A stretch of DNA of 64,000 nucleotides from positions 32,001 through 96,000 of the forward strand of contig JBGAIQ010000013.1 of NCBI GenBank assembly GCA_044225365.1, written 5' to 3'. Source of the stretch: Planctomycetota bacterium. Its GTDB lineage: Bacteria; Planctomycetota; B15-G4; JADJEK01. The notes below the pieces were generated by a model. The model saw nothing but the letters and a program-made list of their open reading frames with translations. It had not been told where the DNA came from and did not search any database. Positions 4,255-58,761 of the stretch are shown one piece after another; position 1 is the stretch's first letter, and each line of letters begins with the position of its first letter. Both the position numbers and the translations under genes were made by a program.

Positions 4255-4306
4255 TCCTCGTTCGAGCCCTGCTTCGCGACGCGGGCGCAGCCTCGTTGGA
4301 AACACC

Positions 4307-6821: not shown

Positions 6822-6834
6822 GCGATCGTCCGGG

Positions 6835-8532
6835 TCAGTTCGCGACGCCGTGGATGCCGTTCGTCAGCGCCATGTGGTTTCGTGACAAAGGTGTCCCGAT
6901 GGTCGCTGCTTGCATGTAGAAATCGGTGAGCGCCGGAATGCCGGCGGGCCACGTGCTCGTGATCGTTGCCTTGCCCGTAGCGTCGAGTGGAATCGTGAAC
7001 GCGGTTCCGGGGGAATTGAGATCGGGGATGAACCACGTGCCGGCGGCGGGCAGGCTCTGGTGACCCGCGTTGACGAACCACATCGAGAGTGCGCCGGGCA
7101 ATCCGCCCTTCATCGTCACCGTGACGGTCGACCCGGCCGTCAGCGGGCCGCTTGCCGCGAGGCGCGGTGGATCGATGACGGTCGAAGTCGGATTGCCGGT
7201 CTGGCTCCACCGCGACGTGGCGAGAGATGCGAGGTAGATCGCACCAACCTCGGATCCGCCGTCGTCATCGTGATCGGCGCCGACGGCGAGTTCGGGAATC
7301 CCGTCGCCATCGATGTCGCCGAGGAAGCACGTCGCCTGCCCGAATCGATCGTCGTTGTCGAGAGGACCGAAGCCGCCCAGGTTGTTCCCGATCTTGCAGT
7401 GACCGTTCACCGTGCCGTCGTGCTGCAGGAAGAGGATGTAGACCGCGCCGCGATTGGACCCTCCGGTGTCGTCCGCGATCGTCCCCACGGCAAGGTCCTG
7501 GATGCCGTCGCCGTTCATGTCGGGGAGCGCGGCGACCGACGAACCGAAGCTGTCGTCCGTCGAGATCGGTCCCTGGAAGTTCGCCGAGACGTCCGTGATC
7601 TTGGTGTACGACTTGACGTAGCCGTCGGTCTGCATGAAGAGGATCCACACGCAGCCGTTGCCTTGTCCGCCGTCGTTGTCGAGGAACGAACTCACGGCGA
7701 CATCGGTGACGCCGTCGCCGTCGAGGTCGCCGATATTCGTCGACGCGTATCCGAAGCGGTCCTGATGATCGAGGATCGTGAAGAACCCGCCCTGACCCAT
7801 CGTGATCTTCTGGCTCGCCTTCACCGTGCCGTCGGACTTCATGAACAGCGTGAAGCAGGATCCGGCGAGATACGCCGCGTCGTTGTCGTAGATCGCGCCC
7901 GCGAGCAGGTCGTTGACGCCGTCGCCATCGAGATCGCCGAGGTTCGTGAGCGAAGTGCCGAACCGGTTCTCGTTCTGCAGGACGTCGGGGAGTCCGCCCT
8001 GACCCATCGTGATCTTCTGATTCGCCTTCACGGTGCCGTCCTTCTTCATGAACAGGACGTAGATCGCACCGTTGTCGAAGAGGCCTCCAGAATCGTCGAG
8101 CCATGAACCGACGGCGAGGTCGATGACGCCATCGCCATCGAGATCGCCCATGTTGCACACCGACCAGCCAAACATGTCGAGCGGGTTCAGCGTGACGTTG
8201 AAGCCGGCGTGATTGCTGCCGATCTTCGAGTACGACTTCACGCTGCCGTCGTGCTTCAGGAACAAGATGTAGAGAGCGCCGGAGTAGGGTACGAATTCGC
8301 TGTCGACGTAGGAGCCGACCGCGATGTCCTGATTCCCGTCTCCATCGAGGTCGCCGAGCTTCGCGACCGAGACTCCGAAGAGGCCGGGCGACGACAAGGT
8401 GGCGGTGAGCCCGCCTTGCGTGGCGCTGATCTTGCGCTGAGATAGAACGGTCCCGGCGAGATTCTGCGCAAGCGCCGACGAGGCGAACGCGGTCATCACG
8501 GCGACCGCGAGCAAGTTCTTTACGATCGACAC
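6835..8532 (-). CDS. Secreted FG-GAP (integrin-alpha-like) beta-propeller protein with a ~125-aa C-terminal domain
   Basis: Signal peptide ending SSALA-Q. Six repeats of FG.S...GDLDGDG..D[LIV]AVG.....GA[IV]Y[IV]LF. Confidence 0.9.
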   Translation of the reverse strand: MSIVKNLLAVAVMTAFASSALAQNLAGTVLSQRKISATQGGLTATLSSPGLFGVSVAKLGDLDGDGNQDIAVGSYVDSEFVPYSGALYILFLKHDGSVKSYSKIGSNHAGFNVTLNPLDMFGWSVCNMGDLDGDGVIDLAVGSWLDDSGGLFDNGAIYVLFMKKDGTVKANQKITMGQGGLPDVLQNENRFGTSLTNLGDLDGDGVNDLLAGAIYDNDAAYLAGSCFTLFMKSDGTVKASQKITMGQGGFFTILDHQDRFGYASTNIGDLDGDGVTDVAVSSFLDNDGGQGNGCVWILFMQTDGYVKSYTKITDVSANFQGPISTDDSFGSSVAALPDMNGDGIQDLAVGTIADDTGGSNRGAVYILFLQHDGTVNGHCKIGNNLGGFGPLDNDDRFGQATCFLGDIDGDGIPELAVGADHDDDGGSEVGAIYLASLATSRWSQTGNPTSTVIDPPRLAASGPLTAGSTVTVTMKGGLPGALSMWFVNAGHQSLPAAGTWFIPDLNSPGTAFTIPLDATGKATITSTWPAGIPALTDFYMQAATIGTPLSRNHMALTNGIHGVAN

Positions 8533-46680: not shown

Positions 46681-48378
46681 TCAATGGTCGAGGGTCAAGG
46701 TGTCGACGGATTCGATCGGCTGCGGGCCGAACTTCGTCGTGGTCCCATCGGGCCACGTCACGTCGACCGTGTAGGTCTTGGTCCCGAGAGGCAGTCCGAA
46801 GTGGACCTGTGGCGGATTCGAACTCTGATAACCCCCGCTGGTATAGACCCAGCGCGTTTGCTTCACGCCGCCCGCGTCGACGACGATCTTGCTGCCGATT
46901 CCATGATGGTTCTTCACATCCGGCCTTCGGTCGAGGAGAGCGACGATCGTCCACGGTCCCTTCGCACCGTCGTTCTCGAGGACGCGGATCGGTTCGTTCA
47001 AACTGTTCACGATCATGTCGATGTCGCCGTCGAGGTCGAGGTCGTCGAAGACCGCACTGCGATCGCAACGGGCTTCCTTCAACCAGGGGCCGGCTTCCTC
47101 GGCGCTCACGAGCTCGAAACGCTTGCCGGCGGTGCGGCGGAAGAGCTGCGGCACCTGATCATGCATCCAGCCGCGCGGCTCGGTGATCTCCTTCGGGTAG
47201 ACATGACCATCGAACACGACGATGTCCTCGTCGCCGTCGTGATCGAAGTCGTAGAAGCCGGTCGCCCACTTCAAGTACGGCCGCGAGACGACGCCGAGGC
47301 CCCAGAGCGGGGTTTGATCCGAGAATTGCCGCTTCCCGACGTACACGTGGAGCGTGTTGGTGTCGTTCATGAAGTTCGTCGAGAACACGTCCGCGAGTTG
47401 ATCGCCGTTCACGTCGCCGATCGCGATGCCCATCGTGGCCTGCTCGATACCGTCGGAATTCGTCGCGATCCCGCTCGTGACGCCGAGGTCCTCGAACGAG
47501 CCGTCGGCCTTGCGCATGAACAGGTTGTTCTTGCCCGAGTCGTTGCCGACGAAGATGTCCTGCTTGCCGTCCCCGTCGAAGTCGAGGATCACCGCGCCGA
47601 GGCCGTAACCCGGCTCGACCTTGTCGAACCCGAGTCGTGACGTGGCGTCCTCGAACGTGCCATCGCCGCGATTCACGAACACGCGATCGGGTTGCGCCTT
47701 CAGGCCCATCGGTCCGCCGAACACGCGCGCGGTCATGAACGTGGTCTCGGGCGGCGGGTTCTTCGGGTCGAACTCGATGTAGTTGACGACGTAGAGGTCG
47801 AGGTCGCCGTCCTGGTCGATGTCGCCGCACGCGGTGGCCGTCGTCCAGTCGTTCGCACCCCCGGCGACACCGGCCTGCGCCGTCGCATCCTCGAACTTCC
47901 CGCCGAGATTGTGATACAGCGAATTCTCGCCGAAGGCGCTGACGTAGAGGTCGTCCTTGCCGTCTCCGTCGTAGTCGAGCGCGCACGATCCGAAACCCCA
48001 GCGATCGAACGCGATGCCCGTCCTCGAGGTGATGTCACGGAAGTGAATCGCGGGACGCTTGCCCATGTTGCTGATGTTCTCGTAGAAACGGCATCCCGGG
48101 CCCTTCTTCGGCGAATCGAGTGTGGCGCCGTTGGGGACGAAGAGGTCGTAGTCGCCGTCGCCGTCGAAGTCGAGGAGCGCGAGGCCGCCGCCCTTCACCT
48201 CGAGGATCTGCGTCGAAGGTGTCTTGCCCGATGTCGTCGTGAAGTCGATCCCACTGTTCTTCGTGATGTCGACGAAGTGGAGTCGGCCCATCGCCGGCTT
48301 CTCTGGCTCTGGATGCGAGCAACCGACGAGGGACGCGAGGACGACGAAGGCGAGTCGAACGGAGCGGGAAATGGTCAG
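46681..48378 (-). CDS. CRTAC1-family FG-GAP/VCBS repeat lipoprotein with ASPIC/UnbV C-terminal domain (first ATG at 48291; signal peptide lies upstream of it)
   Basis: DFDGDGDYDL-type repeats, TMGIAIGD, terminal GGYQSSN...HFGL..V.WPDG. Upstream in-frame extension RSVRLAFVVLASLVGC carries a lipobox. Confidence 0.85.
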   Translation of the reverse strand: MTISRSVRLAFVVLASLVGCSHPEPEKPAMGRLHFVDITKNSGIDFTTTSGKTPSTQILEVKGGGLALLDFDGDGDYDLFVPNGATLDSPKKGPGCRFYENISNMGKRPAIHFRDITSRTGIAFDRWGFGSCALDYDGDGKDDLYVSAFGENSLYHNLGGKFEDATAQAGVAGGANDWTTATACGDIDQDGDLDLYVVNYIEFDPKNPPPETTFMTARVFGGPMGLKAQPDRVFVNRGDGTFEDATSRLGFDKVEPGYGLGAVILDFDGDGKQDIFVGNDSGKNNLFMRKADGSFEDLGVTSGIATNSDGIEQATMGIAIGDVNGDQLADVFSTNFMNDTNTLHVYVGKRQFSDQTPLWGLGVVSRPYLKWATGFYDFDHDGDEDIVVFDGHVYPKEITEPRGWMHDQVPQLFRRTAGKRFELVSAEEAGPWLKEARCDRSAVFDDLDLDGDIDMIVNSLNEPIRVLENDGAKGPWTIVALLDRRPDVKNHHGIGSKIVVDAGGVKQTRWVYTSGGYQSSNPPQVHFGLPLGTKTYTVDVTWPDGTTTKFGPQPIESVDTLTLDH

Positions 48379-49295
48379 TCTCCTTCGGGGCGATTACCGG
48401 ACATCGATGGAGCGCCGTGCTTCGCGCGGCCCTTCTTGATCTCTTCCAGCGCGGCCTTCTCGAGATCGAGTTCGCCAAGTCGGTGATACACGCGCGAAAG
48501 GTTGAACCAGCAGTCTTCGCTCCACGCGACGTACTTCGTCGCGTCCTCGAGGAGGATTCGCGCTTCCTTCAGGAGTGCGTCAGACTTCGAGGGATCGAGT
48601 TCGCTGCGCTGCAGCAGCAGCCCGCCGAGGCGCACCTCCGTCTTTCCGAAGTCGGTGCGGTCGGATTGGCGCGGTGCTTTGCCCTGCTTCGCGAGGTTCA
48701 CGAGCGCGTCCTTCGCGAGGCGATTCGAATCGCGCAGATGCTTCTCGGCTTCGTCGAGGTCGCCGCGCTCGAGCGCGATCAGGCCGAGACCGTACTGCGT
48801 ATCGGCTTCATCGAGGCCGAGCTTCGAAGCGGCCTGGAAGGCCGCGGCCGAGGTGTCGAGGTCCCCGAGGTAGTAGCACGTCCACGCGTAGTAGATGAAC
48901 GCGCCCTTCGCGTTGTCGAACACAGGCCCAGCGTCGATCACCCTCTCGAAATCTGGGCGCGCGGCGGCATAGAGCTTCTGCCGGTGATTCGAGAAAGCGC
49001 GGATGTACAGCGCGCGCGGGTTGTTCGGATCCTTCGCGAGGAACTCGTCGCACACCTCGCGGGCACGAGTCGAATTGCCGAGCACGAGCGCCGACATCGC
49101 TTGCTTCAGGACCGGGTCGTCGATCTTCGGCAACTCGCCCCTTTGCGCCGCAAAGCGTTCGAGTGCACTCTCGATGCGGAGGACGCCCGGCGACTTCGCG
49201 ACGTTCGAGTTCTTTGCGTCGCCCGGACGATCGCATGCGAGCGTCAGGCAGGCGACGAGGCACGTCGCAATCGTGGCGCGGAACGAGAGCATCAT
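48375..49295 (-). CDS. TPR-repeat lipoprotein
   Basis: Signal with lipobox LTLAC and TPR-like repeats (YGLGLIALERGDLDEAEKHL, WFNLSRVYHRLG). Confidence 0.8.
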   Translation of the reverse strand: MMLSFRATIATCLVACLTLACDRPGDAKNSNVAKSPGVLRIESALERFAAQRGELPKIDDPVLKQAMSALVLGNSTRAREVCDEFLAKDPNNPRALYIRAFSNHRQKLYAAARPDFERVIDAGPVFDNAKGAFIYYAWTCYYLGDLDTSAAAFQAASKLGLDEADTQYGLGLIALERGDLDEAEKHLRDSNRLAKDALVNLAKQGKAPRQSDRTDFGKTEVRLGGLLLQRSELDPSKSDALLKEARILLEDATKYVAWSEDCWFNLSRVYHRLGELDLEKAALEEIKKGRAKHGAPSMSGNRPEGD

Positions 49296-49347
49296 GCGCA
49301 GATCGTAGCGTGCAGGAAGTCGTCCCGGGGCGGCTGTTTTGGGGGCC

Positions 49348-49962
49348 TCAATCGAGGACGCGCGTCCACGCCGCAAGGCGCTCCGCGAGCGCGACGCGCC
49401 CGCGCTGGACTCGCTTGTACGCCGTTTCGACGTCGAGGGAGAGGTCGGTGGCGGCGTCCTTGATCGGCATCTCGCGCAGGTACACGCGCTCGAGGATCTC
49501 GCGTTGATCCTTCGGCAGCGTGGCGAGCGCGAGGCGAAGCGTCGTCGCTTCGGAGCCGCTCACGGCTTTCTCCTCCGGCGACGGAAGCGACGAAGCCACT
49601 TCCGGAGCGCCTTCGGCATCGCTGCTCGAGACTCCCGGGCGAGCGTTTCGTCGCTGCGCATGGCGAGACAGCAAGCGGAATGCGCAGCGCAGCAGATAGG
49701 CGCGAAACGCGATCGGATTCTCGAAGCTGGTGCGGCGCGCCACCTTCACGAATCCAGCGGCCGCGTCCTGAGCGACGTCGCTCGCGCTACGCGTGGGCGT
49801 GAGCATGTGCCCGTAACGGCGGCGGATTCGCTCTTTCAGCGTCGCGATCTCCACGCGGAGCAACTCGTCGAGCAACTGCGGCTCGCCGTTCTGCTGGAAG
49901 CGCGCGAGGAGGCTCGCGACCGGGTCTTCCGCGTTCGATCGTGAATTCGAGGACGATTCCAT
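49348..49962 (-). CDS. ECF-type sigma-70 factor (kinase-associated type)
   Basis: Region 2: RIRRR..TPTRSASDVAQD..F....FRAYL. Region 4: ALATLPKDQREIL....E.A..L......KRVQRGR..L. Confidence 0.85.
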   Translation of the reverse strand: MESSSNSRSNAEDPVASLLARFQQNGEPQLLDELLRVEIATLKERIRRRYGHMLTPTRSASDVAQDAAAGFVKVARRTSFENPIAFRAYLLRCAFRLLSRHAQRRNARPGVSSSDAEGAPEVASSLPSPEEKAVSGSEATTLRLALATLPKDQREILERVYLREMPIKDAATDLSLDVETAYKRVQRGRVALAERLAAWTRVLD

Positions 49963-50015
49963 GGGTGCCGCAGAATCGGTGTCCAACCCGAGTGAGAGTA
50001 CACCTTCTGGGAGCT

Positions 50016-50258
50016 ATGGCGAACAACCAGAAAATCGCTGACGTCCCGAGCGACGACGATCCACTCGTCCGCTCGCTCCACGATTGGCTGGACCCCGCGA
50101 ACTTCCCTGCGATCGCGTCGAAGGTCGACGCGAAGCTCGACTATCTCGACACGGCGGATCGGGCGCGCTTCACGCGGCTCGTCGCCGAGACCTTGGAACG
50201 AGTCCGCGCAAGGAAAACGAAGGATCTTGGAAGATCCGAGTCCAGCGCCGCCGAGTGA
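50016..50258 (+). CDS. 80-aa protein homologous to the N-terminal extension of the two downstream Ser/Thr kinases
   Basis: GGGAG just upstream of the ATG. DDPLVRSLHDWLDPANF...DRARFTRLVAE aligns with kinase DDPLARAIFDWLDPERF...DKERWRRLISE. Confidence 0.8.
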   Translation: MANNQKIADVPSDDDPLVRSLHDWLDPANFPAIASKVDAKLDYLDTADRARFTRLVAETLERVRARKTKDLGRSESSAAE

Positions 50259-50339
50259 GCGCCTTTCTCTCTCCCGACCGGCGCGATTCCCGCGCTGGCC
50301 CGACACCTCGAATCCAACTCGATCAAAGAGAGAACGGTC

Positions 50340-51968
50340 ATGCGCTCCATTCGACTGAACGCCTTCCACATCGCGTCCTGCGGCCTCCTCCTCGGTCTTC
50401 CTGCTGCCCGCGCGGAGCAGTGTTTTGCTCAGTACTTCCCAGAGCCGCTCACTTCACCGTGGGTATCGCCCGCGTCTCACTACGGATCCGCGGTTGCGGC
50501 GTCGGGGACGATGTTCGCGGTCGGCGCGCCCGACGACAACCAAGCCATGGGATCGGTCGTGATCCACGAACTCGCGAATGGGTCGTTCGGCAGTTCGACC
50601 GTGATCCAGCCGCTCTTCGGCATGCCGGGCGACCGCTTCGGCGCGGCTGTCGCGCTCGACGGCGATCGGCTCGTCGTGGGTGCGCCGATGGATAACGCCG
50701 CGGGCGTCGGCACCGGCGCCGGTGCGATCTACGTCTACCATCGCATCGTGAATCAGGGCACGAGCGCATGGATCCAGGACGCCAAGTTCTACGCCCCGGA
50801 TGCCGCGCCGGGCGATCACTTCGGCGCCGTCGTCGCGGCCAGCGGCAACACGATCCTCATCGGCGCCCCCGATCGCGACGGGCTCGCCGTCGATCAGGGT
50901 CGGGCCTATGCGCTCGAGTATTCGGTCAACAGCCTCGTGTGGTCCACGTTCAACCAGACTACTCCGCAGACGAACGAGCACTACGGCAGCGCGCTCTCGA
51001 TCGATGGCAATCTGCTCGCGATCGGCAGCCCGCACTACATCAAGAAGACGCCCTCGACACCCGAGTTCGGACGCGTGACGGTGCTGAGCCGCAGCGCACC
51101 GGGATCCAATTGGCTGAAGGAATCGGAACTCGTCCCGGCAACCGGTGTGGCGGGTCTCCACTTCGGGATCTCGGTCTCCGTGAAGTCGGGTCGAATCCTC
51201 GTCGGTGCTCCCGGGTTCGTGGACTCGTCCGGTTTGGCATCGGGAGCCGGCCTGTTGTTCGAGAAGCAGAACGGCACCTGGACCCAAGTCACCGATCTGA
51301 GTTCGTACGACGCGCTGTTCAACGGCGAGACGCTTCTCGGCACGGCCGTGGTCCTCTTGGAACACGACGTAATCATTGCGAGTCCGACCCGATTGAGCAC
51401 TGGACACCAGGACATCTACGGGCAGTGGTGGGTGCCGACCGGGGTCTCCCTGCCGTTCGGCGACATGCAGGTGAACGACGGCACGACGATCAGCCCCATC
51501 ATCGCGGCCTCGGGATCGTTCGCGATCGCGGGTCGCCCGGCCGCGGCGCCGGGTGAGGTCGACAAGGCCTTCGCGCTCTCGCTCTGCGCCGGCAATTGGT
51601 CGAATCACCCGTGGGCGGCCTCCAAGGGCGTTGCCGGATATCCGCAGCTTCGTGGCGCGGGTCCTCTCGACGACAACCTCGCGCTCGAACTGCGCCTCGA
51701 GAAGGCGAAACCGAACACGTTCGGCATGCTCCTCGTCCACGTTGGCATCGAGGCCGCGCTGCCCTTCCACGGCGGCACCCTCGAGGCGTTCCCTGCCAAC
51801 CTCGCGCTCACGGTCCCGATCGACAATGCGGGCCGGTTCGCGGCGCCCGCGGTTCTTCCCGCGGGTCTCTCCAACGTCTCGTTCGTGATGCAGATGCTGA
51901 TCCCGGACGCGACGGCGAAGGGCGGAGTTGCGCTCTCGACGGGGCTGAAGGCGACGACCGCGCCCTGA
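50340..51968 (+). CDS. Secreted FG-GAP repeat beta-propeller protein with a ~125-aa C-terminal domain
   Basis: Signal peptide ending AARA-E. Repeats of [FY]G.AVA..G..L.VGAP......G..Y. Confidence 0.88.
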   Translation: MRSIRLNAFHIASCGLLLGLPAARAEQCFAQYFPEPLTSPWVSPASHYGSAVAASGTMFAVGAPDDNQAMGSVVIHELANGSFGSSTVIQPLFGMPGDRFGAAVALDGDRLVVGAPMDNAAGVGTGAGAIYVYHRIVNQGTSAWIQDAKFYAPDAAPGDHFGAVVAASGNTILIGAPDRDGLAVDQGRAYALEYSVNSLVWSTFNQTTPQTNEHYGSALSIDGNLLAIGSPHYIKKTPSTPEFGRVTVLSRSAPGSNWLKESELVPATGVAGLHFGISVSVKSGRILVGAPGFVDSSGLASGAGLLFEKQNGTWTQVTDLSSYDALFNGETLLGTAVVLLEHDVIIASPTRLSTGHQDIYGQWWVPTGVSLPFGDMQVNDGTTISPIIAASGSFAIAGRPAAAPGEVDKAFALSLCAGNWSNHPWAASKGVAGYPQLRGAGPLDDNLALELRLEKAKPNTFGMLLVHVGIEAALPFHGGTLEAFPANLALTVPIDNAGRFAAPAVLPAGLSNVSFVMQMLIPDATAKGGVALSTGLKATTAP

Positions 51969-51983
51969 TCGGAATTCCATCTT

Positions 51984-52017
51984 GCCCCCGCGCGGACGGC
52001 TGCGCGGGGGCTTCTTC
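51984..52017 (+). terminator. Probable terminator hairpin
   Basis: GCCCCCGCGC / GCGCGGGGGC 10-bp stem followed by TTCTTC, about 15 nt after the FG-GAP stop. Confidence 0.55.
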
Positions 52018-52076
52018 GCTTGCATCGGAGATCGCTACCTCGTGGGGAGGCTTCACGGCAGAATGGGAACGCCGCC

Positions 52077-55000
52077 ATGGAGAGAAACGAACCCGATCGC
52101 GATGTACCGGACGATCCGCTCGCGCGAGCGATCTTCGACTGGCTCGACCCCGAGCGATTCGGATCGATCGAGATCGAGAGAGCGCCCGACAGCCTGATCT
52201 CCGACGACAAGGAGCGTTGGCGTCGTCTCATCTCCGAATCGGGCAAGAGCACGATTCCGCCCATGCCCAAGGCCCCGCCGCCCCCCTACGAGCGAGTGGG
52301 GAACTATCGTCTGCGTGCGCCGATCGGCAGCGGCGGTTTCGGCCACGTCTATCTCGGTGAGGACGAACGCAACGGAAAGCGCGTCGCGGTGAAGTTGCTG
52401 CGTGCCGAGATCGCGATCGATCCGCGCGAGCGCGAGCGATTCCAACGCGAGGCCACCGCCGCACGGCGCGTGAACCATCCCAACTGCGTTCGCGTGCTCG
52501 AAACGGGAGAGATCGAGAACTCTCTCTACACGGTTCTCGAGATCATCGAAGGCGAAGGGCTCGACGAGCATCTGCGGCGCCTGCGCGCGATCGGCCAGAA
52601 GATGACGCAGGAGCGCGCGACCGAGATCGGCATCGAGATCTGCGACGCGCTCGCAGCCGTTCACGCCGAAGGACTCGTCCATCGCGACGTGAAGCCCGCG
52701 AACATAAGGCTCACCCGGGAGGGTCGGGCGGTCCTCGTCGACTTCGGACTCGCGACGGGCGAGGCGCTTGCGGTTCTCACGCGAACGGGCGAATTCATCG
52801 GCTCGCTCCCGTACGCACCGCCCGAGCAGATACGCGACGGAGTCCGCGAAGTCGACGCGCGCGCCGACCTCTATTCGCTGGCGGCTTCGCTCTACGAGTG
52901 CCTGACGGGGCAGACCGTCTTCACCGGCGCGTCGGCCGAGCAACTCGTGTTGTCGATCGTGCAGGACGAGCCGATCTCGCCGCAGCGACTCAATCCGCAG
53001 GTGAGCCGGGAAGCATCGCTCGTGCTCGGCAAGGCGCTCGAGAAGAATGCGGCGCGACGCTACGCAACGGCGAAGGATTTCCAGGCAGACCTCCTCGCTC
53101 TGAAGGCGAACGAGCAGGTGAGCGCGCGCCCACGCAGCCTGATGCGCGGACTCGAACTCACGATTCGCAAGCGTCCGGTCTTCAGCGTCTCCGTCGCACT
53201 CTTCCTCGTCGTCGGGATCGGACTTCCTCTCGCCTTGTTCATCCAGCAGAAGGCGTATGCCGCACGCCTCCGCGGCGAGCGCGACCGAGCGGACTCGCAG
53301 CGTCTCGCCGCGCTCTCGCAGATCGAGATCGATGTCGATCCCGCACGCGCGGGACTCCTGGCGCTCGCGTCGATCGACCGTTCGCCTTCGTTCGAGGGCC
53401 GCAACGCGCTCCTTCGCGCGCTGTCGCAGATGAACGAGAAGAAGACGATTCATGGCCCGTGGCAGCGATTGAACTACGCACTCGCAGTGGGAGACGGCAC
53501 TGCCGCGGTTGCACTCGAACGCAACGGGGATCTCTACTCGATCGATCTGAAGAGCGGCGCGGTGGTGCGTCGCGCCGGGCCCTTCGATCCCAACTGCATG
53601 CTCGCGACGACATCGAACGAAGCGCTCGTCGGCACGCCGACGGGCGTCGTCGAGCGATTCGCGCTCGACGACTTCCGCAAGCTCGAGCCGTGGACGGTGG
53701 GGAAGGCGCCGATCCTCGCGATCGCGGCGACGCACGACGGGCATCGTGCGGTCGTCGCTTGCGGTCGCGCGATCGTGTTCATCGAAGACGGCGTCCAGAA
53801 GACCACGCTCTCGCCGCACGCCAAGCGAATCGGCGACGTCGCGATCTCGCAGAACGGCGACAAGGGATTCAGCGTCGGAGCCGATGGAAAGCTGTTCGAA
53901 TTCGATACGGCGAGCGGCAAGTTCGAGGAACGACTCTCCTTCGGTGAGACCGAACCTCCTCGCCTTTGCCTCTCGCGCGATGATTCTCTGCTCGCTTGCG
54001 GAACCGATACCGACGTCGCGCTCTACGACGTGGCAAAGCATTCGTTGCGGCAGCGAATCGGCGGCCACTACGGACAGAGCACCGTTCTCACGTTTTCGCC
54101 GAAGGCGGACTACCTCGTCGCTTCCACGTCGCGCGAACTTCCCGCGCTGTATCGCGTTTCGGACGGCGAACGCATGATCGCGTATCGCGGCCACACCGAT
54201 CGAGTGAAGAGCATCTCGTTCCTGGGCGATTCGCTGCGCATCCTGACCTGCGGTAGCGAGCTCGATTCCACCCTTCGCATCTACTCGCCGCGTTCCGTAC
54301 TCGACGACGACGTCGTGCTGAATCTCGGCGGCGACGTCTTCTACCTCGAACCGGCAAGGGACTTCTCCGCCTTCATCGCTGGGGAGTATCAAGGGACGAA
54401 GGTGAAGCGAGTCGAACTCGACTCGGACCAGTTGGTCTGGGAATTCGGTGCAGGCGATCCCACGCTCGACCGGGTCCGCTCGATGCGACACGGCGATGTC
54501 TTCATCGTGGTGCGCAACTCCGGCGCGCTCGAGTTCCGACGGATCGCGGACGGGGCCATCGTCGAAACGGTGCAGGGCGTCGCCACGAACATCGAGCCGC
54601 ACTTCGACGAACGGCGCAATCGTCTCCTCGCGAGCATCGACGACAACCTCGTCGCGCTCGACGCGAAGTCTGGCGCAGTCCTCCGTAAGGCCGCGATGGC
54701 GGACGGTGCGAAGGAAAGGATCCACGGCTTCTCGATCGACGCCGATGTCCTCCTCGGCGCCACCGATAGCGGGCGAATCGTCCGGATCGACCCCGAGACG
54801 CTCACGATGGCTGCGATTGCGCAACTCGAGTCGGGCCTTCGCGTGCTCGGAATGGAGATCGATGCCCAGCACGACCGCTTCGTCGCGCAGGTCGTGAACA
54901 TGAACACGTTCGCGTTGCGTCTCGAGTGGTTCGCGATCCACTCCAGCGAATCGCTCGGGCGCACGCCCACTGTCACTTCGCACATCTGGCACACTCACGG

Positions 55001-55406
55001 ATTCGCTGCGGAGGGCAATGAATACGTCTACTCGATCGGCGGATCGCTACACCTGCTCTCGCTGATCGACGGCAGTGAGCGAACGATTGCGAATCCCGAT
55101 ACGGTCAACACTGCGGGGGTATCGGGAGACGATCGCCTCGTCGCCATCGGCACGACGTCGGGATCGATCCGAGTCGTCGATCACGCCACGCTGAAGGCGA
55201 TCGTCGACCTCCCGGCGCACGTTGCGAACGTGAACAAGCTCGTCTTCCACGGCGACGATCACATGCTCTACTCCGCGTCGAGCGATGGAACGGTTCGACG
55301 CTGGCGAATCGATCGCCTGGTCGAGAACGCCCGCGGAGTGTTCCCGAGGGAGCTGTCGCGAGAAGAACGCGAGCACTTCGAGATCGAGGATCACGAGGGC
55401 GAATGA
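52077..55406 (+). CDS. Hanks-type Ser/Thr kinase, TM helix, WD40 beta-propeller (paralog 1)
   Basis: IGSGGFGHVY, VAVK, HRDVKPAN, DFGLA, TRTGEFIGSLPYAPPEQ, TM PVFSVSVALFLVVGIGLPLALF, WD repeats (GHTDRVKSISF, SASSDGTVRRW). Confidence 0.93.
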   Translation: MERNEPDRDVPDDPLARAIFDWLDPERFGSIEIERAPDSLISDDKERWRRLISESGKSTIPPMPKAPPPPYERVGNYRLRAPIGSGGFGHVYLGEDERNGKRVAVKLLRAEIAIDPRERERFQREATAARRVNHPNCVRVLETGEIENSLYTVLEIIEGEGLDEHLRRLRAIGQKMTQERATEIGIEICDALAAVHAEGLVHRDVKPANIRLTREGRAVLVDFGLATGEALAVLTRTGEFIGSLPYAPPEQIRDGVREVDARADLYSLAASLYECLTGQTVFTGASAEQLVLSIVQDEPISPQRLNPQVSREASLVLGKALEKNAARRYATAKDFQADLLALKANEQVSARPRSLMRGLELTIRKRPVFSVSVALFLVVGIGLPLALFIQQKAYAARLRGERDRADSQRLAALSQIEIDVDPARAGLLALASIDRSPSFEGRNALLRALSQMNEKKTIHGPWQRLNYALAVGDGTAAVALERNGDLYSIDLKSGAVVRRAGPFDPNCMLATTSNEALVGTPTGVVERFALDDFRKLEPWTVGKAPILAIAATHDGHRAVVACGRAIVFIEDGVQKTTLSPHAKRIGDVAISQNGDKGFSVGADGKLFEFDTASGKFEERLSFGETEPPRLCLSRDDSLLACGTDTDVALYDVAKHSLRQRIGGHYGQSTVLTFSPKADYLVASTSRELPALYRVSDGERMIAYRGHTDRVKSISFLGDSLRILTCGSELDSTLRIYSPRSVLDDDVVLNLGGDVFYLEPARDFSAFIAGEYQGTKVKRVELDSDQLVWEFGAGDPTLDRVRSMRHGDVFIVVRNSGALEFRRIADGAIVETVQGVATNIEPHFDERRNRLLASIDDNLVALDAKSGAVLRKAAMADGAKERIHGFSIDADVLLGATDSGRIVRIDPETLTMAAIAQLESGLRVLGMEIDAQHDRFVAQVVNMNTFALRLEWFAIHSSESLGRTPTVTSHIWHTHGFAAEGNEYVYSIGGSLHLLSLIDGSERTIANPDTVNTAGVSGDDRLVAIGTTSGSIRVVDHATLKAIVDLPAHVANVNKLVFHGDDHMLYSASSDGTVRRWRIDRLVENARGVFPRELSREEREHFEIEDHEGE

Positions 55407-55425
55407 ACACGGCCAGGACGGACTC

Positions 55426-58400
55426 GTGACGCGAAACGAAGACCCGACTCCGGACGATCCGCTCGCACGCGCGATCTTCGACTGGCTCGATCCGGAGCGA
55501 TTCGGCTCGGGAGAGGTCGAGAAGGCACCCGAGTCGCTCGCCTCCGACGACAAGGAGCGGTGGCGTCGCCTGATCTCGGAGTCGGGGAAGAGCACGCTGC
55601 CGCCGCTTCCGAAGGCGAGTCCGCCCCCCTACGACCGTGTCGGTCCGTATCGACTGCTCGCGCCGATCGGGAGCGGAGGTTTTGGGCACGTCTATCTCGG
55701 CGAGGCCGAGGATGGGACGCGGGTCGCGGTGAAGTTGCTGCGGGCCGAGATCGCTCGCGATCCACGCGAGCGCGAGCGATTCCAACGCGAGGCGACGGCG
55801 GCGCGTCGCGTCGCCCATCCAAACTGCGTCCGCGTTCTCGAGACGGGTGAAATCGAGGACGCAAAGTACATCGTGTTCCAGGTGATCGAAGGCGAGAACC
55901 TCGACGAGTACCTGCGGCGCCTTCGCGCCGTCGGACAGAGGATGACGGAGGAACGAGCACTCGAGATCGGCATCGAGATCTGTGATGCGCTCGCCGCGGT
56001 GCACGCCGAAGGCCTCGTCCATCGCGACGTGAAACCGGGGAACATCCGCCTCACGAAGCAAGGACACGCGGTGCTCGTCGACTTCGGGCTCGCCACGGGT
56101 GAATCCCTCGCCGTGCTCACGCGGACGGGCGAGTTCATCGGCTCGTTGCCGTACGCACCGCCCGAGCAGATTCGCGATGGCGTCCGCGAGGTGGGGCCGC
56201 GGGCCGACATCTACTCGCTCGCCGCGACGCTCTACGAATGCCTCACCGGCCAGACCGTCTTCACGGGCGCTTCCGCCGAACAGCTCGTGCTCTCGATCGT
56301 CCAGGACGAACCGATCTCACCGCAGCGCTTGAACCCGGCCGTCTCACGCGAAACGGCGATCGTCTTGTCGAAGGCGCTCGAGAAGAGCGCGGCGCGTCGG
56401 TACGCAGTCGCAGGTGATTTCAAAGCAGACCTGGTCGCGTTGCGATCCGGCGCCCCGATCGTCGCTCGTCCGCGCAGCATCGTCCGCACGCTCGAACTGT
56501 CGATTCGCAAGCGACCGGTCTTCAGCCTCTGCGTCGCGCTGTTCGCCGTCGTGTGCGTCGGCTTGCCGCTCGCGCTGCTCGTTCAACAGCGGTCCTACAA
56601 CGCGAAGCTGCGCGAGGAGCGCGACATCGCGAATGCGCAGCGACTCGCCGCGCTCTCCCGGATCGAGGCTAGCGTCGACCCCGCGCGCTCCACCTTGCTC
56701 GCGCTCGAATCGATCGATCGCGCGCCGACGATGGAGGGGCGCACGGCGTTGTTCGAGGGCTTGTCGTGGCTCACCGAGGAGAAGACGTACTACGGCGACT
56801 GGGATCGTCTCGCGGGTGCGTGCGCGTTCGACGGGGACACCCGATTCGTGGCGCTCAATCGAAAAGGGGAACTGTTCGACATCGATCGCGCATCGGGCCG
56901 CGCGACCATCGTGGCAAGCGGGTTTCCGCCCTTCTCCGTACTCAGCGGTACGCCGAACGCAGTGCGGATCGGACTCCCGAACGGGACGATCCAGAGGTAC
57001 TCGTTGCCCGATCTCGCGAAGCAGGAGACGGTCGAGGTCGGTGCGTCGCCGGTGACGGCGATCGTCGCGATGCCGAGCTGCGAACGCGTTCTCGCGTTGT
57101 GTGGTCGCGAACTCGTCGTGATCGAGAACGGTGCAGTCGTGAGTCGCTTCAAGCCTCACAAGGGGCCGGTCGGTGGAATCGCGATCGCGAACGACGGCCG
57201 CACGCTCTACAGCGCGGGCGACGACGGAGCGATTCGCGCCATCGACGTCGAAACGCAGGCAATCCGCGATCTCGCGACGATCGAGAGCAGCATGCCGCCC
57301 AAGCTTGCGCTTTCTCCCGACGGCAGCCGTCTCGCGTGCGAGACGGAGACCGACGTGCTCGTGCTCGATCCGCACACGGGATCGGCGCTCTTCCGCTGCG
57401 ACGAGGATCATCGCCAGCTCAGCGTCCTCGCGTTCTCGCGCGATTCGGAACGCCTGCTCGCGGCGGAAGTGGTGGGTGTCGTCAACGTCATGCGCACGAG
57501 CGACGGCGCTCGCGTCGCCACGCATCGCGGTCATACGAATCCGGTGAAGAGCGCGGCCTTCCTCTCCGACTCCCACGACGTGTTCACTTGCGGCAGCGAG
57601 ACCGATTCGACTTTGCGCATCTTCGCCGAACGGACCGTGGTCGAGGACATGACGATCGGACGGAGCGGAAAGGACGCCGTTCGCGTCGACGAACTTCCGA
57701 ACGGAGCGGCTCTCCTCGTACCGAGCGAGTCGGACCGCAGGCTCGATCGCATCGCAATCGACGGATCGGGAATCGACTGGAAACTCGAGTTCGCGGCGGA
57801 TTCGACGATCGACGCCATCGCGCTCCGCGAAGGGTGCGAGATCTTCCTCCTGACCCACGATTCCGGAGACTTCGATTCGAGGAGCGCGATCGACGGCCAC
57901 CTCGTTCGGTCGCTACCCAAGATTCCGAAGCTTCTGAAGCCCAGCTTCGATGCGACGGGCCGCGGGATCGTCACCATCGTCGACGGGGCGATCACGATCC
58001 TCGATTCGATCGACGGCTCCGTTCTCGCTCGCGATCGCCTCGAGTCGGCGTCTCCCGGATGCCGCGTGTTCGCCGCCGCAGCGGGCACGATCCTCGCCGG
58101 GACCGAGGACGGGCGAATCCTCCTCCTCGATCCAAAGACGCTCGAGATCGCCCACTCCATCGCGCTCGGTCAAAAGGCAGTGTGCGCCGCGTTCTACGTC
58201 GATCCGAAGCAGGACCGGTTTGCTGCGCGAATCCTCAGCACGACCGGCGTCGGTGTGCGCTACGAGTGGTACTCGTCGAAGGACGGATCACTCCTCGGTC
58301 GCGTTCCCGAAGTGACGAGTCATTACACGACGCCGTTCGGGCTCGCCCGCCAGGGCTCGCTCTTTCTCTACTCCGTCGGCGACACGCTCCACGTCGTGGA

Positions 58401-58761
58401 GCTCGCGACCGGCAACGACCGCACGATCGTCGGCCAGGTCCGGATCACGGCTGCGACGGTCTCGAACGACGGGCGCTTCGCCGCCATCGGCGATATCGAC
58501 GGCGCGATTCGAGTCGTGGAGTTCGAGTCGGGCGAGGGATTCCTCGACATTCCCTCGCGGGACTTTCGCGTCGAGCACCTCGTGTTCGACACGCACGATC
58601 GCAGCGTGGCCCCGTCGAACTCGTTGGTCGTCGTCTATGACGACGGGATCGTGCGGCGGATCGATCTGCTCGCGTTGAAGGAACTCGCCCGCGATCGAAC
58701 GCCGCGAGTCCTCACCTCCGGCGAACGCGACCGATTCCGGGTCGACGCTTCGCGCAATTGA
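55426..58761 (+). CDS. Hanks-type Ser/Thr kinase, TM helix, WD40 beta-propeller (paralog 2)
   Basis: GTG start 19 nt after paralog 1. Same kinase motifs (HRDVKPGN, DFGLA, GSLPYAPPEQ), GHTNPVKSAAF, YSAGDDGAIR. Confidence 0.93.
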   Translation: MTRNEDPTPDDPLARAIFDWLDPERFGSGEVEKAPESLASDDKERWRRLISESGKSTLPPLPKASPPPYDRVGPYRLLAPIGSGGFGHVYLGEAEDGTRVAVKLLRAEIARDPRERERFQREATAARRVAHPNCVRVLETGEIEDAKYIVFQVIEGENLDEYLRRLRAVGQRMTEERALEIGIEICDALAAVHAEGLVHRDVKPGNIRLTKQGHAVLVDFGLATGESLAVLTRTGEFIGSLPYAPPEQIRDGVREVGPRADIYSLAATLYECLTGQTVFTGASAEQLVLSIVQDEPISPQRLNPAVSRETAIVLSKALEKSAARRYAVAGDFKADLVALRSGAPIVARPRSIVRTLELSIRKRPVFSLCVALFAVVCVGLPLALLVQQRSYNAKLREERDIANAQRLAALSRIEASVDPARSTLLALESIDRAPTMEGRTALFEGLSWLTEEKTYYGDWDRLAGACAFDGDTRFVALNRKGELFDIDRASGRATIVASGFPPFSVLSGTPNAVRIGLPNGTIQRYSLPDLAKQETVEVGASPVTAIVAMPSCERVLALCGRELVVIENGAVVSRFKPHKGPVGGIAIANDGRTLYSAGDDGAIRAIDVETQAIRDLATIESSMPPKLALSPDGSRLACETETDVLVLDPHTGSALFRCDEDHRQLSVLAFSRDSERLLAAEVVGVVNVMRTSDGARVATHRGHTNPVKSAAFLSDSHDVFTCGSETDSTLRIFAERTVVEDMTIGRSGKDAVRVDELPNGAALLVPSESDRRLDRIAIDGSGIDWKLEFAADSTIDAIALREGCEIFLLTHDSGDFDSRSAIDGHLVRSLPKIPKLLKPSFDATGRGIVTIVDGAITILDSIDGSVLARDRLESASPGCRVFAAAAGTILAGTEDGRILLLDPKTLEIAHSIALGQKAVCAAFYVDPKQDRFAARILSTTGVGVRYEWYSSKDGSLLGRVPEVTSHYTTPFGLARQGSLFLYSVGDTLHVVELATGNDRTIVGQVRITAATVSNDGRFAAIGDIDGAIRVVEFESGEGFLDIPSRDFRVEHLVFDTHDRSVAPSNSLVVVYDDGIVRRIDLLALKELARDRTPRVLTSGERDRFRVDASRN

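What the first reader, a model, noticed from the sequence alone, without database searches (positions are those of the whole stretch)
49348..58761. Candidate new signalling module: ECF sigma + stand-alone kinase N-terminal mini-protein + FG-GAP protein + two kinase-WD40 paralogs
Seen: an ECF sigma gene (minus strand) sits head-to-head, only 30-55 bp away, with an 80-aa ORF. A secreted FG-GAP gene and two tandem kinase-TM-WD40 genes follow. The 80-aa protein (DDPLVRSLHDWLDPANFPAI...DYLDTADRARFTRLVAE) matches the ~50-aa N-terminal extension of both kinases (DDPLARAIFDWLDPERFGS...[DE]SL.SDDKERWRRLISE). No membrane anti-sigma gene is adjacent. Established: some ECFs are activated by a co-encoded Hanks kinase (EcfP/PknT of Vibrio parahaemolyticus), and ECF-kinase pairs are abundant in Planctomycetota. 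Inference: the DWLDP helical domain is the sigma-docking module, and its free copy acts as a soluble anti-sigma, decoy or adaptor, so two receptors feed one sigma factor.
Basis: partly seen in the sequence, partly recalled or inferred. Interest (0 to 1): 0.85.

Follow-up and report, generated by a model that had tools for sequence, protein, structure and literature searches.

The report
Stand-alone kinase N-terminus beside ECF sigma
A small protein that copies the first ~50 residues of two neighbouring membrane Ser/Thr kinases sits next to a sigma factor that probably needs phosphorylation, and free copies of this domain travel with the same sigma factor in related bacteria, suggesting an undescribed regulator of kinase-to-sigma signalling.

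Summary
An ECF sigma gene (49348-49962, minus strand) lies 53 nt head-to-head with an 80-aa ORF (50016-50258). A secreted FG-GAP protein and two kinase-TM-WD40 paralogs follow. The mini-protein aligns from residue 1 with the kinases' N-termini (BLASTP 3e-10, 41% over 59 aa). It has no Pfam or NCBIfam family.

The domain is rare. Only 7 hits were found among 1.84 billion representatives, and none in about 440 genomes of the phylum. Free forms recur: 3 soluble proteins of 79-80 aa and 6 tail-anchored proteins of 107-111 aa.

Eight of the 9 free forms, and one fused kinase, lie on contigs whose length and source match those of a sigma ortholog. One such match was verified directly. The sigma has SASD where other ECFs have DAED. 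The Ser at the position phosphorylated in EcfP is invariant in 13 of 13 homologs.

Kinases beside related sigmas carry a comparable N-extension. A second, independent stand-alone copy exists in another genus.

So the genetic link between this domain and the sigma factor is supported. Binding to the sigma is untested. My best reading is a sigma-docking or anti-sigma-like module, at about 0.45. I rate it a new variant of known ECF-kinase signalling.

The parts
49348..49962 (-). ECF sigma factor, 204 aa from ATG 49962 (an alternative TTG at 49986 gives 212 aa). Region 2.2 reads SASD where SigW has EAED and M. tuberculosis SigE has DAED. The sigma2-sigma4 linker is Ser/Thr-rich.
   Evidence: Pfam Sigma70_r4_2 and Sigma70_r2; TIGR02937; alignment of 13 homologs with S61 invariant; alignment to solved ECF sigmas.
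49963..50015 (.). 53-nt divergent intergenic region. Both promoters must overlap it or the neighbouring coding sequences. GGGAG lies just before the mini-ORF ATG.
   Evidence: Sequence read directly. A related strain shows substitutions and 1-nt indels at 49986-49994.
50016..50258 (+). Stand-alone 'DWLDP' mini-protein, 80 aa, soluble with no TM. The predicted model is all-helical (helices 16-25, 27-41, 46-78) at low confidence. It is homologous to the first ~55 residues of both kinases.
   Evidence: BLASTP 3e-10 versus kinase 1; alignments A1, A2 and A9; AF2 pLDDT 62.8; codon-position GC like neighbouring genes; intact orthologs P0001 and P0028 at 91-92% identity.
50340..51968 (+). FG-GAP_2 repeat protein, 542 aa, with a hydrophobic N-terminal leader that reads as a signal peptide. 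It lies between the mini-ORF and the kinases. A role as ligand or co-receptor is inferred only.
   Evidence: Pfam PF14312, 1.4e-37; the leader was read by eye from the translation, no predictor run. The order sigma, mini, FG-GAP is kept on a related strain's contig (X5 record 9).
52077..55406 (+). Kinase 1, 1109 aa: DWLDP N-extension (residues ~1-56, nt 52077-52244), Pro-rich linker, Hanks kinase domain with HRD and DFG motifs, TM at about 368-390, and a WD40/beta-propeller ectodomain.
   Evidence: Pfam Pkinase 4.4e-41 plus WD40 families; start supported by database protein P0002; TM and regional identities.
55426..58761 (+). Kinase 2, about 1111 aa from the GTG at 55426. The start is inferred from alignment with kinase 1; the longest ORF starts at 55285 and overlaps kinase 1. 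The architecture is the same, with the DWLDP N-extension at about nt 55438-55587.
   Evidence: Pfam Pkinase 5.7e-40 plus WD40 families. Identity to kinase 1 is 80% in the N-extension, 84% in the kinase domain and 31-34% in the WD40 part; dS is 0.73-1.3.
46681..49376 (-). Two genes downstream of the sigma on the same strand: a TPR protein with a lipoprotein-like leader (48375-49376, overlapping the sigma's 3' end) and an FG-GAP/UnbV_ASPIC protein (46681-48291). They may be co-transcribed outputs; whether they belong to the module is uncertain.
   Evidence: Pfam TPR_16 etc., FG-GAP_3 and UnbV_ASPIC; ORF layout.

Best explanation
This locus is a phosphorylation-gated ECF sigma system of the EcfP/PknT kind with an extra, undescribed component.

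Proposed mechanism:
1. The sigma factor lacks two of the three acidic residues of the sigma2.2 DAED patch (it has SASD). It is probably inactive until a Ser is phosphorylated.
2. Two membrane Hanks kinases with different WD40 sensors but near-identical cytoplasmic parts do this.
3. Their first ~55 residues (DPLxxAIxDWLDP...DRxRLxxLVxES) form a small helical module on a Pro-rich tether. This module recruits the sigma factor to the kinase.
4. The same module also exists as a separate protein. It is tail-anchored in the membrane in related lineages and soluble here.
5. The free copy binds the same partner without phosphorylating it. It therefore acts as a minimal anti-sigma, a decoy or an adaptor that sets the threshold of the pathway.

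Shown here: the homology, the rarity of the domain, its conservation, and its genetic linkage to this sigma subclade.

Inferred: phosphorylation of the sigma, binding of the module to the sigma, and the sign of the free copy's effect.
For: 1. Homology. Mini versus kinase 1 gives BLASTP 3e-10, aligned N-terminus to N-terminus. The own genome holds exactly 3 copies, all in this locus.

2. The free form is a real gene family.
- Six tail-anchored proteins of 107-111 aa fall in 4 clusters. Three soluble forms of 79-80 aa also exist.
- DPL, WLDP, F, DRAR, V, E and R are invariant across all 9, while the linker and TM vary.
- In a related strain the only two mini-ORF differences among the 40 rows shown (247 more rows were not shown) are synonymous: 50072 CGC>CGT and 50201 CGA>CGG.
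- P0028, the protein I equate with that contig by length and source, has residues 11-80 unchanged.

3. Linkage to the sigma.
- Eight of 9 free forms share contig length and source with a sigma ortholog. The pairs are 144260 (own), 2468, 2554, 19840, 10895, 5813, 2598 and 2428.
- The 2468 pair is verified, because that contig spans sigma, mini and FG-GAP.
- Fused kinase P0007 shares length 41937 with sigma P0032.
- Contigs of 2.4-2.6 kb leave room for little beyond these two genes.

4. The sigma looks phospho-dependent.
- SASD aligns with EAED/DAED of solved ECFs.
- The third-position Ser is invariant in 13 of 13 homologs.
- It corresponds to the phosphorylated Thr of the EcfP STTA motif (review PMC8999054, passages read).

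5. The clade is kinase-linked.
- Nine of 16 extended sigma-clade loci have an adjacent Hanks kinase.
- Eight of those carry a shared ~50-aa N-extension.
- That extension aligns collinearly with DWLDP (hhalign E 0.0096, 33% identity).
- A more distant pair, L074, has ADPLADAFEAWL at the kinase N-terminus.

6. A second, independent stand-alone copy. In genome G007, a 117-aa ORF two genes from the sigma ortholog equals the whole pre-kinase region of the G002 kinase (BLASTP 2e-8). Its GC3 is 0.95.

7. Selection. The N-extension has dN/dS of about 0.24 between paralogs whose dS is about 0.73.

8. Topology. Tail-anchored, N-in, with a basic juxtamembrane stretch. This is the topology of single-pass anti-sigma factors.
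Against: - No result here shows physical contact with the sigma factor.
- The domain has no detectable similarity to any anti-sigma family (Pfam and NCBIfam) or to any solved structure.
- Kinase-linked ECF groups are reported as typically lacking anti-sigma factors (PMC7826278, passage read).
- N-terminal helical extensions of other sequence types occur on many of this genome's 73 kinases, including ones with no sigma gene within 4 kb. Such extensions need not be sigma-specific.
- Homology between DWLDP and the clade-wide N-extension is only marginal statistically (probability 4.3%; E 0.08-0.1 among 79 sequences).
- Linkage in relatives rests on matching contig lengths, not on sequences I could read.
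- AlgU has EAQD at the same site, so an incomplete DAED does not by itself prove phospho-dependence.
- The mini gene is divergent from the sigma, not co-transcribed as most anti-sigma genes are.
Confidence: 0.45

Rival explanations
1. The module binds kinases, not the sigma. The N-extension is a kinase dimerisation or autoregulatory element. The free copy is a kinase-less decoy that pairs with the kinases' own N-extension or N-lobe. It would damp or scaffold kinase activation. Its linkage to the sigma would simply reflect conservation of the whole sigma-kinase cassette.
For: - The free copy is homologous to the kinases and heads their operon.
- N-terminal helical extensions are common on kinases of this genome that have no sigma neighbour.
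- PknS, an experimentally studied ECF kinase, has an 81-residue helical N-terminal region on a flexible linker with no assigned function (PMC13147305, passages read).
Against: - Free forms sit with the sigma on contigs of 2.4-2.6 kb, which cannot also hold a 3.3-kb kinase.
- No fused kinase was recovered from the 19840- and 10895-nt contigs that hold a free form plus a sigma. This is weak, because the 50%-identity clustering could hide one.
- The extension type tracks the sigma clade. Eight of 9 adjacent kinases carry it, and the clade-wide profile hits nothing elsewhere in this genome.
Confidence: 0.22
2. The module is a substrate or phospho-relay rather than a binder. The mini-protein, whose C-terminal tail is Ser-rich (GRSESSAAE), is itself phosphorylated by the kinases. 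It then acts on the sigma or on another target, in partner-switch style.
For: - The tail is Ser-rich and the gene is co-operonic with two kinases.
- Partner-switching precedents exist for ECFs (PMC7826278 introduction).
Against: - The tail-anchored relatives lack the Ser-rich tail.
- The conserved part is the helical DWLDP core, which has no invariant Ser or Thr.
Confidence: 0.08
3. The mini-ORF is a non-functional relic: the 5' stump of a third kinase gene left by a rearrangement, and still open by chance.
For: - It aligns with the exact N-terminus of the kinases and stops before the kinase domain.
- The G007 free ORF likewise ends exactly where the kinase domain would begin.
Against: - It is only 41% identical to the kinases, so it is old, yet the ORF is intact.
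- It has gene-like codon-position GC.
- It is intact in two further variants with no or one core substitution. The only two mini-ORF differences listed for a related strain are synonymous.
- Six tail-anchored homologs in 4 clusters keep the domain.
Confidence: 0.04

Closest known systems
EcfP/PknT (Vibrio parahaemolyticus) and EcfK/PknS (Xanthomonas citri), ECF43: sigma activation by Hanks-kinase phosphorylation
   Same: - An ECF sigma is co-encoded with a single-pass Hanks kinase.
- The sigma2.2 DAED patch is replaced by a Ser/Thr-containing motif (STTA in EcfP, SASD here), with a hydroxyl residue at the third position.
- The sigma2-sigma4 linker is Ser/Thr-rich, as in EcfK, where T104-S110 are phosphorylated.
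- PknS also has an ~81-residue helical N-terminal region before the kinase domain.

Sources: PMC8999054 and PMC13147305, abstract and passages read.
   Different: - This locus has two paralogous kinases with WD40 sensors and a stand-alone copy of the kinase N-terminus. In relatives that copy is tail-anchored.
- One acidic residue of the patch is kept (D62).
- Membership of ECF43 could not be tested.
- No sequence similarity was detected between DWLDP and any solved chain.
Planctomycetal kinase-linked ECF groups (ECF59-62, ECF217; Jogler 2012, Casas-Pastor 2021)
   Same: - The titles of related records point to Planctomycetota.
- An ECF sigma lies next to TM Ser/Thr kinases with WD40 or TPR ectodomains.
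- These groups are described as lacking classical anti-sigma factors (PMC7826278; PMC11032199).
   Different: The passages I read do not mention a conserved kinase N-extension or a free paralog of it. The group HMMs were not available. Supplementary Text S2 and Table S2 of PMC7826278 may describe neighbourhood proteins, but supplements were closed. Jogler 2012 is not held.
Class II anti-sigma factors (NepR, CnrY): short helical sigma-binding peptides, soluble or single-pass (recalled, apart from the CnrH entry 4cxf listed)
   Same: - Size and build are similar: about 50 residues of helices. The protein is either soluble (like the 80-aa form here) or anchored by one TM with almost no periplasmic part (like the 107-111-aa relatives).
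- It is encoded beside its ECF sigma.
   Different: No sequence similarity was found. The fold could not be compared because the model is low-confidence. NepR and CnrY domains are not known to be fused to kinases.
Single-pass class I anti-sigma factors (RseA, RsiW, ZAS types)
   Same: The topology matches: N-in, cytoplasmic N-terminal domain, one TM. The gene is adjacent to an ECF sigma gene.
   Different: There is no ASD, zf-HC2 or RskA Pfam match at E up to 10 and no HxxxCxxC motif. The domain is about half the length of a class I ASD. The copy in this window has no TM.

Membership tests
ECF sigma factor (group 4 sigma-70) | Sigma2 and sigma4 domains only, about 200 aa | tested here: met
   Pfam Sigma70_r4_2 at 2.3e-10; Sigma70_r2 at 2e-4, 21.5 bits, just under the cut-off of 24. 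TIGR02937 at 58.8 bits, above its cut-off of 42.9. Matches solved ECF sigmas AlgU, SigW, SigE and CnrH.
Phosphorylation-activated ECF (ECF43-like mechanism) | Sigma2.2 DAED patch lost, with Ser/Thr at the phospho-acceptor position | tested here: met
   SASD aligns with EAED (SigW) and DAED (M. tuberculosis SigE). S61 is invariant in 13 of 13 homologs. Caveats: D62 is retained, and AlgU has EAQD at the same site.
Phosphorylation-activated ECF (ECF43-like mechanism) | Co-encoded Hanks-type Ser/Thr kinase | tested here: met
   Two kinases lie 2-5.5 kb away in the divergent operon. Nine of 16 clade loci have an adjacent kinase.
Phosphorylation-activated ECF (ECF43-like mechanism) | Placement in phylogenetic group ECF43 (or ECF59-62/217) by the ECF classification HMMs | not testable with these tools
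   No ECF-group models are on hand. NCBIfam subfamily hits TIGR02989 and TIGR02984 are far below their cut-offs.
Phosphorylation-activated ECF (ECF43-like mechanism) | Kinase phosphorylates the sigma, and phosphorylation is needed for RNAP binding | not testable with these tools
   This needs in vitro phosphorylation and transcription assays.
Hanks-type receptor Ser/Thr kinase | Pkinase domain with catalytic Lys, HRD and DFG motifs, one TM, extracytoplasmic sensor | tested here: met
   Pkinase at 4e-41 and 6e-40. VAVK, HRDVKP.N and DFG are visible in the translations. TM at about 364-390. WD40 hits.
Anti-sigma factor, class I (ASD, ZAS, RskA and similar) | Recognisable anti-sigma domain by profile | tested here: not met
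   No Pfam or NCBIfam anti-sigma family for the mini-protein, the four tail-anchored relatives scanned, or the kinase N-terminus, even at E up to 10.
Anti-sigma factor (any class) | Encoded next to its cognate ECF sigma | tested here: met
   Adjacent and divergent here. Eight of 9 free forms share contig length and source with a sigma ortholog, and one such pair was verified.
Anti-sigma factor (any class) | Single-pass membrane topology with a cytoplasmic N-terminal domain | tested here: inconclusive
   Met by the 6 relatives of 107-111 aa, which have a basic stretch and then a 16-19-residue hydrophobic C-terminus. Not met by the window's 80-aa protein or its 2 close orthologs.
Anti-sigma factor (any class) | Binds and inhibits the sigma factor | not testable with these tools
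   This needs a binding assay or a confident complex model.
Class II anti-sigma (NepR/CnrY) | Sequence or fold similarity to NepR/CnrY | tested here: not met
   The profile of the domain against all PDB chains gave only a spurious hit at E 0.86. The fold was not compared because the model is too uncertain (pLDDT 62.8).

The most novel reading that the evidence does not exclude
The DWLDP module is a new, minimal class of ECF sigma-binding domain that exists in three formats: fused to the N-terminus of Hanks receptor kinases, tail-anchored in the membrane, and soluble. The kinases would then carry their own anti-sigma domain. They would hold the sigma at the membrane and release it by phosphorylating sigma2.2. 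The free copies would compete for the same surface and set the threshold. On this reading, anti-sigma sequestration and kinase activation, so far treated as alternative ECF control modes, are combined in one pathway. The helical N-termini of other ECF-linked kinases, such as PknS, would be the general substrate-docking device.
Probability: 0.3. Interest if true: 0.8.

Novelty: new variant of a known kind. Interest (0 to 1): 0.62.

Why it matters
How Hanks kinases pick out their cognate ECF sigma factor is not known. For PknS/EcfK the 81-residue N-terminal region of the kinase is unassigned (PMC13147305). Planctomycetes encode dozens of kinases and sigmas per genome; this genome has 73 kinase ORFs and at least 48 sigma-like ORFs. 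Insulation between these pathways is therefore a real problem.

A short, autonomous, clade-specific N-terminal module would give a concrete, testable candidate for the specificity determinant. It appears both fused to the kinase and as a separate gene glued to the sigma gene. It would also give a new type of pathway modulator. Because the module is only ~50 residues and the partners are small, the prediction can be tested directly with two-hybrid and in vitro phosphorylation assays.

Tried and rejected
Complex prediction. Sigma (alignment A5) with the mini-protein (alignment A6) gave no verdict: score 0.00, mark 0.32, controls not run, partner pLDDT under 50. It counts neither for nor against binding.

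Expression. No RNA holder was listed among the 9 runs found, so nothing can be said about expression.

Finding relatives with readable DNA:
- The HMM of the domain found 0 of 40 family/order relatives. In 400 genomes of the phylum it gave 4 marginal hits at E 0.002-0.008. I read one of them (L009) and it was a wrong-frame artefact; the other three were not examined.
- A back-translated DPLxx[AS]xxxWLDP pattern gave 26 stretches in genome contigs and 33 in metagenome contigs. All were chance matches with no downstream DRxR...ES.

The ESM Atlas gave no usable hit.

Homology of DWLDP to other kinase N-extensions:
- A mixed set (A7) gave hhalign probability 1.1%, E 0.047.
- The clade-specific set (A8) gave E 0.0096, probability 4.3%.
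- hmmsearch against 79 kinase N-termini ranked L074 and L078 fifth and sixth, at E 0.08-0.1.
- I treat this as suggestive only.

Structure. The AF2 model of the mini-protein was too uncertain (pLDDT 62.8, pTM 0.28) for a fold search, so none was run.

Gene conversion between the kinases is rejected, because dS is 0.73-0.90 in the cytoplasmic part.

A frameshifted TM after the mini stop is rejected. Only 81 nt follow, and I saw no hydrophobic stretch when reading them by eye.

dN/dS for the mini gene could not be computed.

Literature. 'DWLDP' matched 0 papers. Searches found no description of a kinase N-terminal docking module or a free copy. Jogler 2012 (PMC3497475) is not held.

Full report
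**What is there**

The region holds, on the minus strand, an ECF sigma gene. Its ORF runs 49348-49986 from a TTG. The ATG at 49962 gives 204 aa, the length of its closest database homologs. Pfam finds Sigma70_r4_2 and Sigma70_r2, and NCBIfam finds TIGR02937.

An 80-aa ORF starts 53 nt away on the plus strand (50016-50258), with GGGAG just upstream. Three more plus-strand genes follow:
- an FG-GAP_2 protein with an N-terminal leader that reads as a signal peptide (50340-51968);
- kinase 1 (52077-55406, 1109 aa; the start matches database protein P0002);
- kinase 2 (about 55426-58761).

Both kinases have a Hanks kinase domain, one TM segment and WD40/beta-propeller repeats.

Downstream of the sigma on its own strand lie a TPR protein with a lipoprotein-like leader and an FG-GAP/UnbV_ASPIC protein. 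No gene in the neighbourhood matches a known anti-sigma family.

**The similarity is real**

The mini-protein aligns with kinase 1 from residue 1 to residue 1. BLASTP gives E = 3e-10 for the single comparison, with 24 of 59 residues identical. The three copies share 17 invariant columns (DDPL, R, DWLDP, F, L, D, R, RL, E).

The mini-ORF has the codon-position GC profile of its neighbours, 0.64/0.46/0.79. The AF2 model is all-helical (helices 16-25, 27-41, 46-78) but of low confidence, at pLDDT 62.8. No Pfam, NCBIfam, PDB or Atlas match exists.

**The domain is rare but is a family**

- The own genome has exactly the three copies.
- A profile search of 1.84 billion representative proteins gave 7 hits. 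They were the own kinase cluster, two further fused kinases (P0007 with WD40, 1108 aa; P0006 with a TPR-like tail, 817 aa), three small proteins, and one repeat protein that I regard as spurious.
- A second search restricted to small proteins found 5 clusters.
- With cluster members, this makes 9 free forms. Three are soluble proteins of 79-80 aa: the window's and two variants 91-92% identical, which differ only at residues 2-10 and at one D/E. Six are proteins of 107-111 aa in four clusters.
- In those six, the DWLDP domain is followed by a basic stretch and a 16-19-residue hydrophobic C-terminus. That is a tail-anchored, N-in topology.
- The domain core is invariant across all nine, while the linker and TM vary.
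- The domain was not found in 40 relatives or in 400 sampled genomes of the phylum. The latter gave four marginal hits; the one I read was a wrong-frame artefact and the other three were not examined.
- DNA-pattern scans of the genome and metagenome contig collections also found nothing real.

**Linkage to the sigma factor**

I could not read the relatives' contigs. However, the collection reports the length of the longest contig carrying each protein. Eight of the 9 free forms have a sigma ortholog (57-97% identical to the window's) from the same source on a contig of exactly the same length:

| Free form | Sigma ortholog | Source | Contig length (nt) |
|---|---|---|---|
| P0027 (own) | P0029 (own) | NCBI | 144260 |
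| P0028 | P0008 | Logan | 2468 |
| P0021 | P0011 | JGI | 2554 |
| P0005 | P0025 | Logan | 19840 |
| P0022 | P0026 | Logan | 10895 |
| P0023 | P0014 | Logan | 5813 |
| P0004 | P0030 | JGI | 2598 |
| P0024 | P0031 | Logan | 2428 |

The ninth free form, P0001, is on a 1005-nt contig. The fused kinase P0007 shares length 41937 with sigma P0032. P0006 (13285) has no such match.

The logic is validated in one case. Laying public contigs on the window shows a 2468-nt contig from another study spanning sigma, mini-ORF and the start of FG-GAP (X5 record 9). Contigs from two further studies cover parts of the same region, and one of them (X4 record 3) bridges the mini-ORF into FG-GAP.

In that related strain the sigma region differs at 62 of 691 positions. 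I equate the contig with proteins P0008 and P0028 by length and source. P0008 is 97% identical to the window's sigma. Within the mini core, the only two differences among the rows shown are synonymous, and P0028 has residues 11-80 unchanged.

**The sigma factor looks phosphorylation-dependent**

Aligned to solved ECF sigmas, residues S59-A60-S61-D62 fall on EAED of SigW and DAED of M. tuberculosis SigE. S61 is invariant in 13 of 13 homologs, while position 59 varies among S, G, V and A. The more distant clade members I saw keep S or T at that position.

A review states that EcfP and all ECF43 members lack DAED, that EcfP has STTA, and that its second Thr is phosphorylated by PknT to allow RNAP binding (PMC8999054, passages read).

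The sigma2-sigma4 linker here is Ser/Thr-rich. In EcfK, linker residues T104-S110 are also phosphorylated (PMC13147305, abstract). As a caveat, AlgU has EAQD at the same site.

**The clade is kinase-linked, and the kinases carry a comparable N-extension**

A profile of the sigma found close homologs in 18 of 401 genomes of the phylum, counting the own genome. Of 16 such loci extended to about 12.5 kb, 9 have a Hanks kinase next to the sigma. Eight of those kinases share a ~50-aa N-extension (hhDxhLDxxLRGExxD ... L[ST]xxxRxRh; alignment A8).

This extension aligns collinearly with the DWLDP domain. hhalign gives E 0.0096, probability 4.3% and 33% identity for mini versus L103. That is suggestive, not proof.

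A more distant sigma (42% identical, locus L074) is convergent with a kinase-WD40 whose N-terminus reads ADPLADAFEAWL. The own genome has a paralogous sigma (contig C75) with its own kinase 4 nt downstream, and that kinase carries yet another N-extension sequence.

**A second, independent stand-alone copy**

In genome G007 (same family, different genus), a 117-aa ORF lies two genes from the sigma ortholog. It matches the entire pre-kinase region of the kinase beside the sigma ortholog in G002 (BLASTP 2e-8, 33% over 110 aa). It ends exactly where the kinase domain would begin. Its GC3 is 0.95. So kinase N-termini have become separate genes beside this sigma clade at least twice.

**The two kinases**

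| Region (kinase 1 versus kinase 2) | Identity |
|---|---|
| N-extension | 80% |
| Kinase domain | 84% |
| TM | 64% |
| WD40 ectodomain | 31-34% |

These values are. dS is 0.73-0.90 in the cytoplasmic part and 1.07-1.3 in the ectodomain. The duplication is therefore old and there has been no recent gene conversion. The N-extension has dN/dS of about 0.24. This fits two receptors with different inputs and one conserved cytoplasmic output.

**Interpretation**

The evidence shows three things. The pre-kinase N-terminal module is autonomous and under selection. It is specific to this sigma subclade. Both its free and fused forms are genetically tied to the sigma gene.

My reading is that the module docks the sigma factor. 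I put it at about 0.45 because no contact is shown. On this reading, the kinases would use it to recruit their substrate. The free copy, tail-anchored in relatives and soluble here, would sequester or scaffold the sigma as a minimal anti-sigma or decoy.

The main rival (about 0.22) is that the module acts on the kinases, through dimerisation or autoregulation, and that the free copy is a kinase decoy. Helical N-extensions of other sequence types are common on this genome's 73 kinases, including those with no sigma gene within 4 kb. PknS also has an unassigned 81-residue helical N-terminus.

A relic explanation is unlikely, at about 0.04.

**Comparison with the literature**

Kinase-linked ECF groups are known and are described as typically lacking anti-sigma factors (PMC7826278). 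WD40 and TPR receptor kinases are common in Planctomycetota (PMC11032199).

I found no description of the N-terminal module or of its free copies. 'DWLDP' matched 0 papers, and searches gave nothing relevant. I could not see Jogler 2012 or the supplements of the ECF reclassification paper, which may list neighbourhood proteins.

I therefore rate this a new variant of a known kind of system.

Noticed in passing
G000 contig C75:78353-81982 (locus L096): A paralog of the window's sigma (profile E 4e-48) has its own Hanks kinase 4 nt downstream. That kinase's N-extension (MTDPSLEALVEEYLQRRELG...) has a different sequence from DWLDP. So one genome holds two sigma-kinase pairs of the same clade, each with its own extension type. 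This would fit the extension being a specificity determinant.
   Followed up: partly
Whole genome G000: There are 73 ORFs with a Hanks kinase domain (phmmer E<1e-10). Sixteen lie within 4 kb of a sigma-like ORF and 9 lie within about 320 nt. Many kinases, with or without a sigma neighbour, carry helical N-extensions of a few recurring sequence types, for example '...RWxRIxxLFExALEL...ERxAFLxxxCGDDxxLRxEVExLL'.
   Followed up: partly
L115:7460-7813 (-) in genome G007; compare L112:7467-10451 (+) in G002: A free-standing 117-aa ORF equals the entire pre-kinase region of a related kinase (BLASTP 2e-8). It lies two genes from the sigma ortholog and is followed by a gene with a lipoprotein-like leader instead of a kinase domain. 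This is an independent case of a kinase N-terminus as a separate gene.
   Followed up: partly
window 52077-58761: The two kinase paralogs have diverged very unevenly. The cytoplasmic half is 80-84% identical and the WD40 ectodomain 31-34%, although dS is near saturation throughout (0.73-1.3). In the ectodomain dN/dS is about 0.6-0.7, which suggests relaxed or diversifying selection on the sensor.
   Followed up: partly
window 46681-49376 (-) and 50340-51968 (+): Both arms of the divergent locus encode FG-GAP-type beta-propeller proteins: one of the FG-GAP_2 type, with a signal-peptide-like leader, before the kinases, and one FG-GAP_3/UnbV_ASPIC type after the sigma. The sigma arm also has a TPR protein with a lipoprotein-like leader whose start overlaps the sigma's 3' end. 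These could be regulon outputs or co-receptors.
   Followed up: no
window 50016-50045: The first ~10 codons of the mini-ORF are hypervariable among close strains. A related contig has a 48-letter replaced stretch at 50038/50040 and another skips 6 letters. The protein variants differ only at residues 2-10 and one D/E. The remaining 70 codons are almost unchanged.
   Followed up: partly
L074 (a Planctomycetota MAG contig), 3493-8191: Topoisomerase VI subunits A and B (TP6A_N/Toprim and Topo-VIb transducer domains) are encoded next to the related sigma-kinase pair. I recall Topo VI being mainly archaeal, so this seemed worth a note.
   Followed up: no
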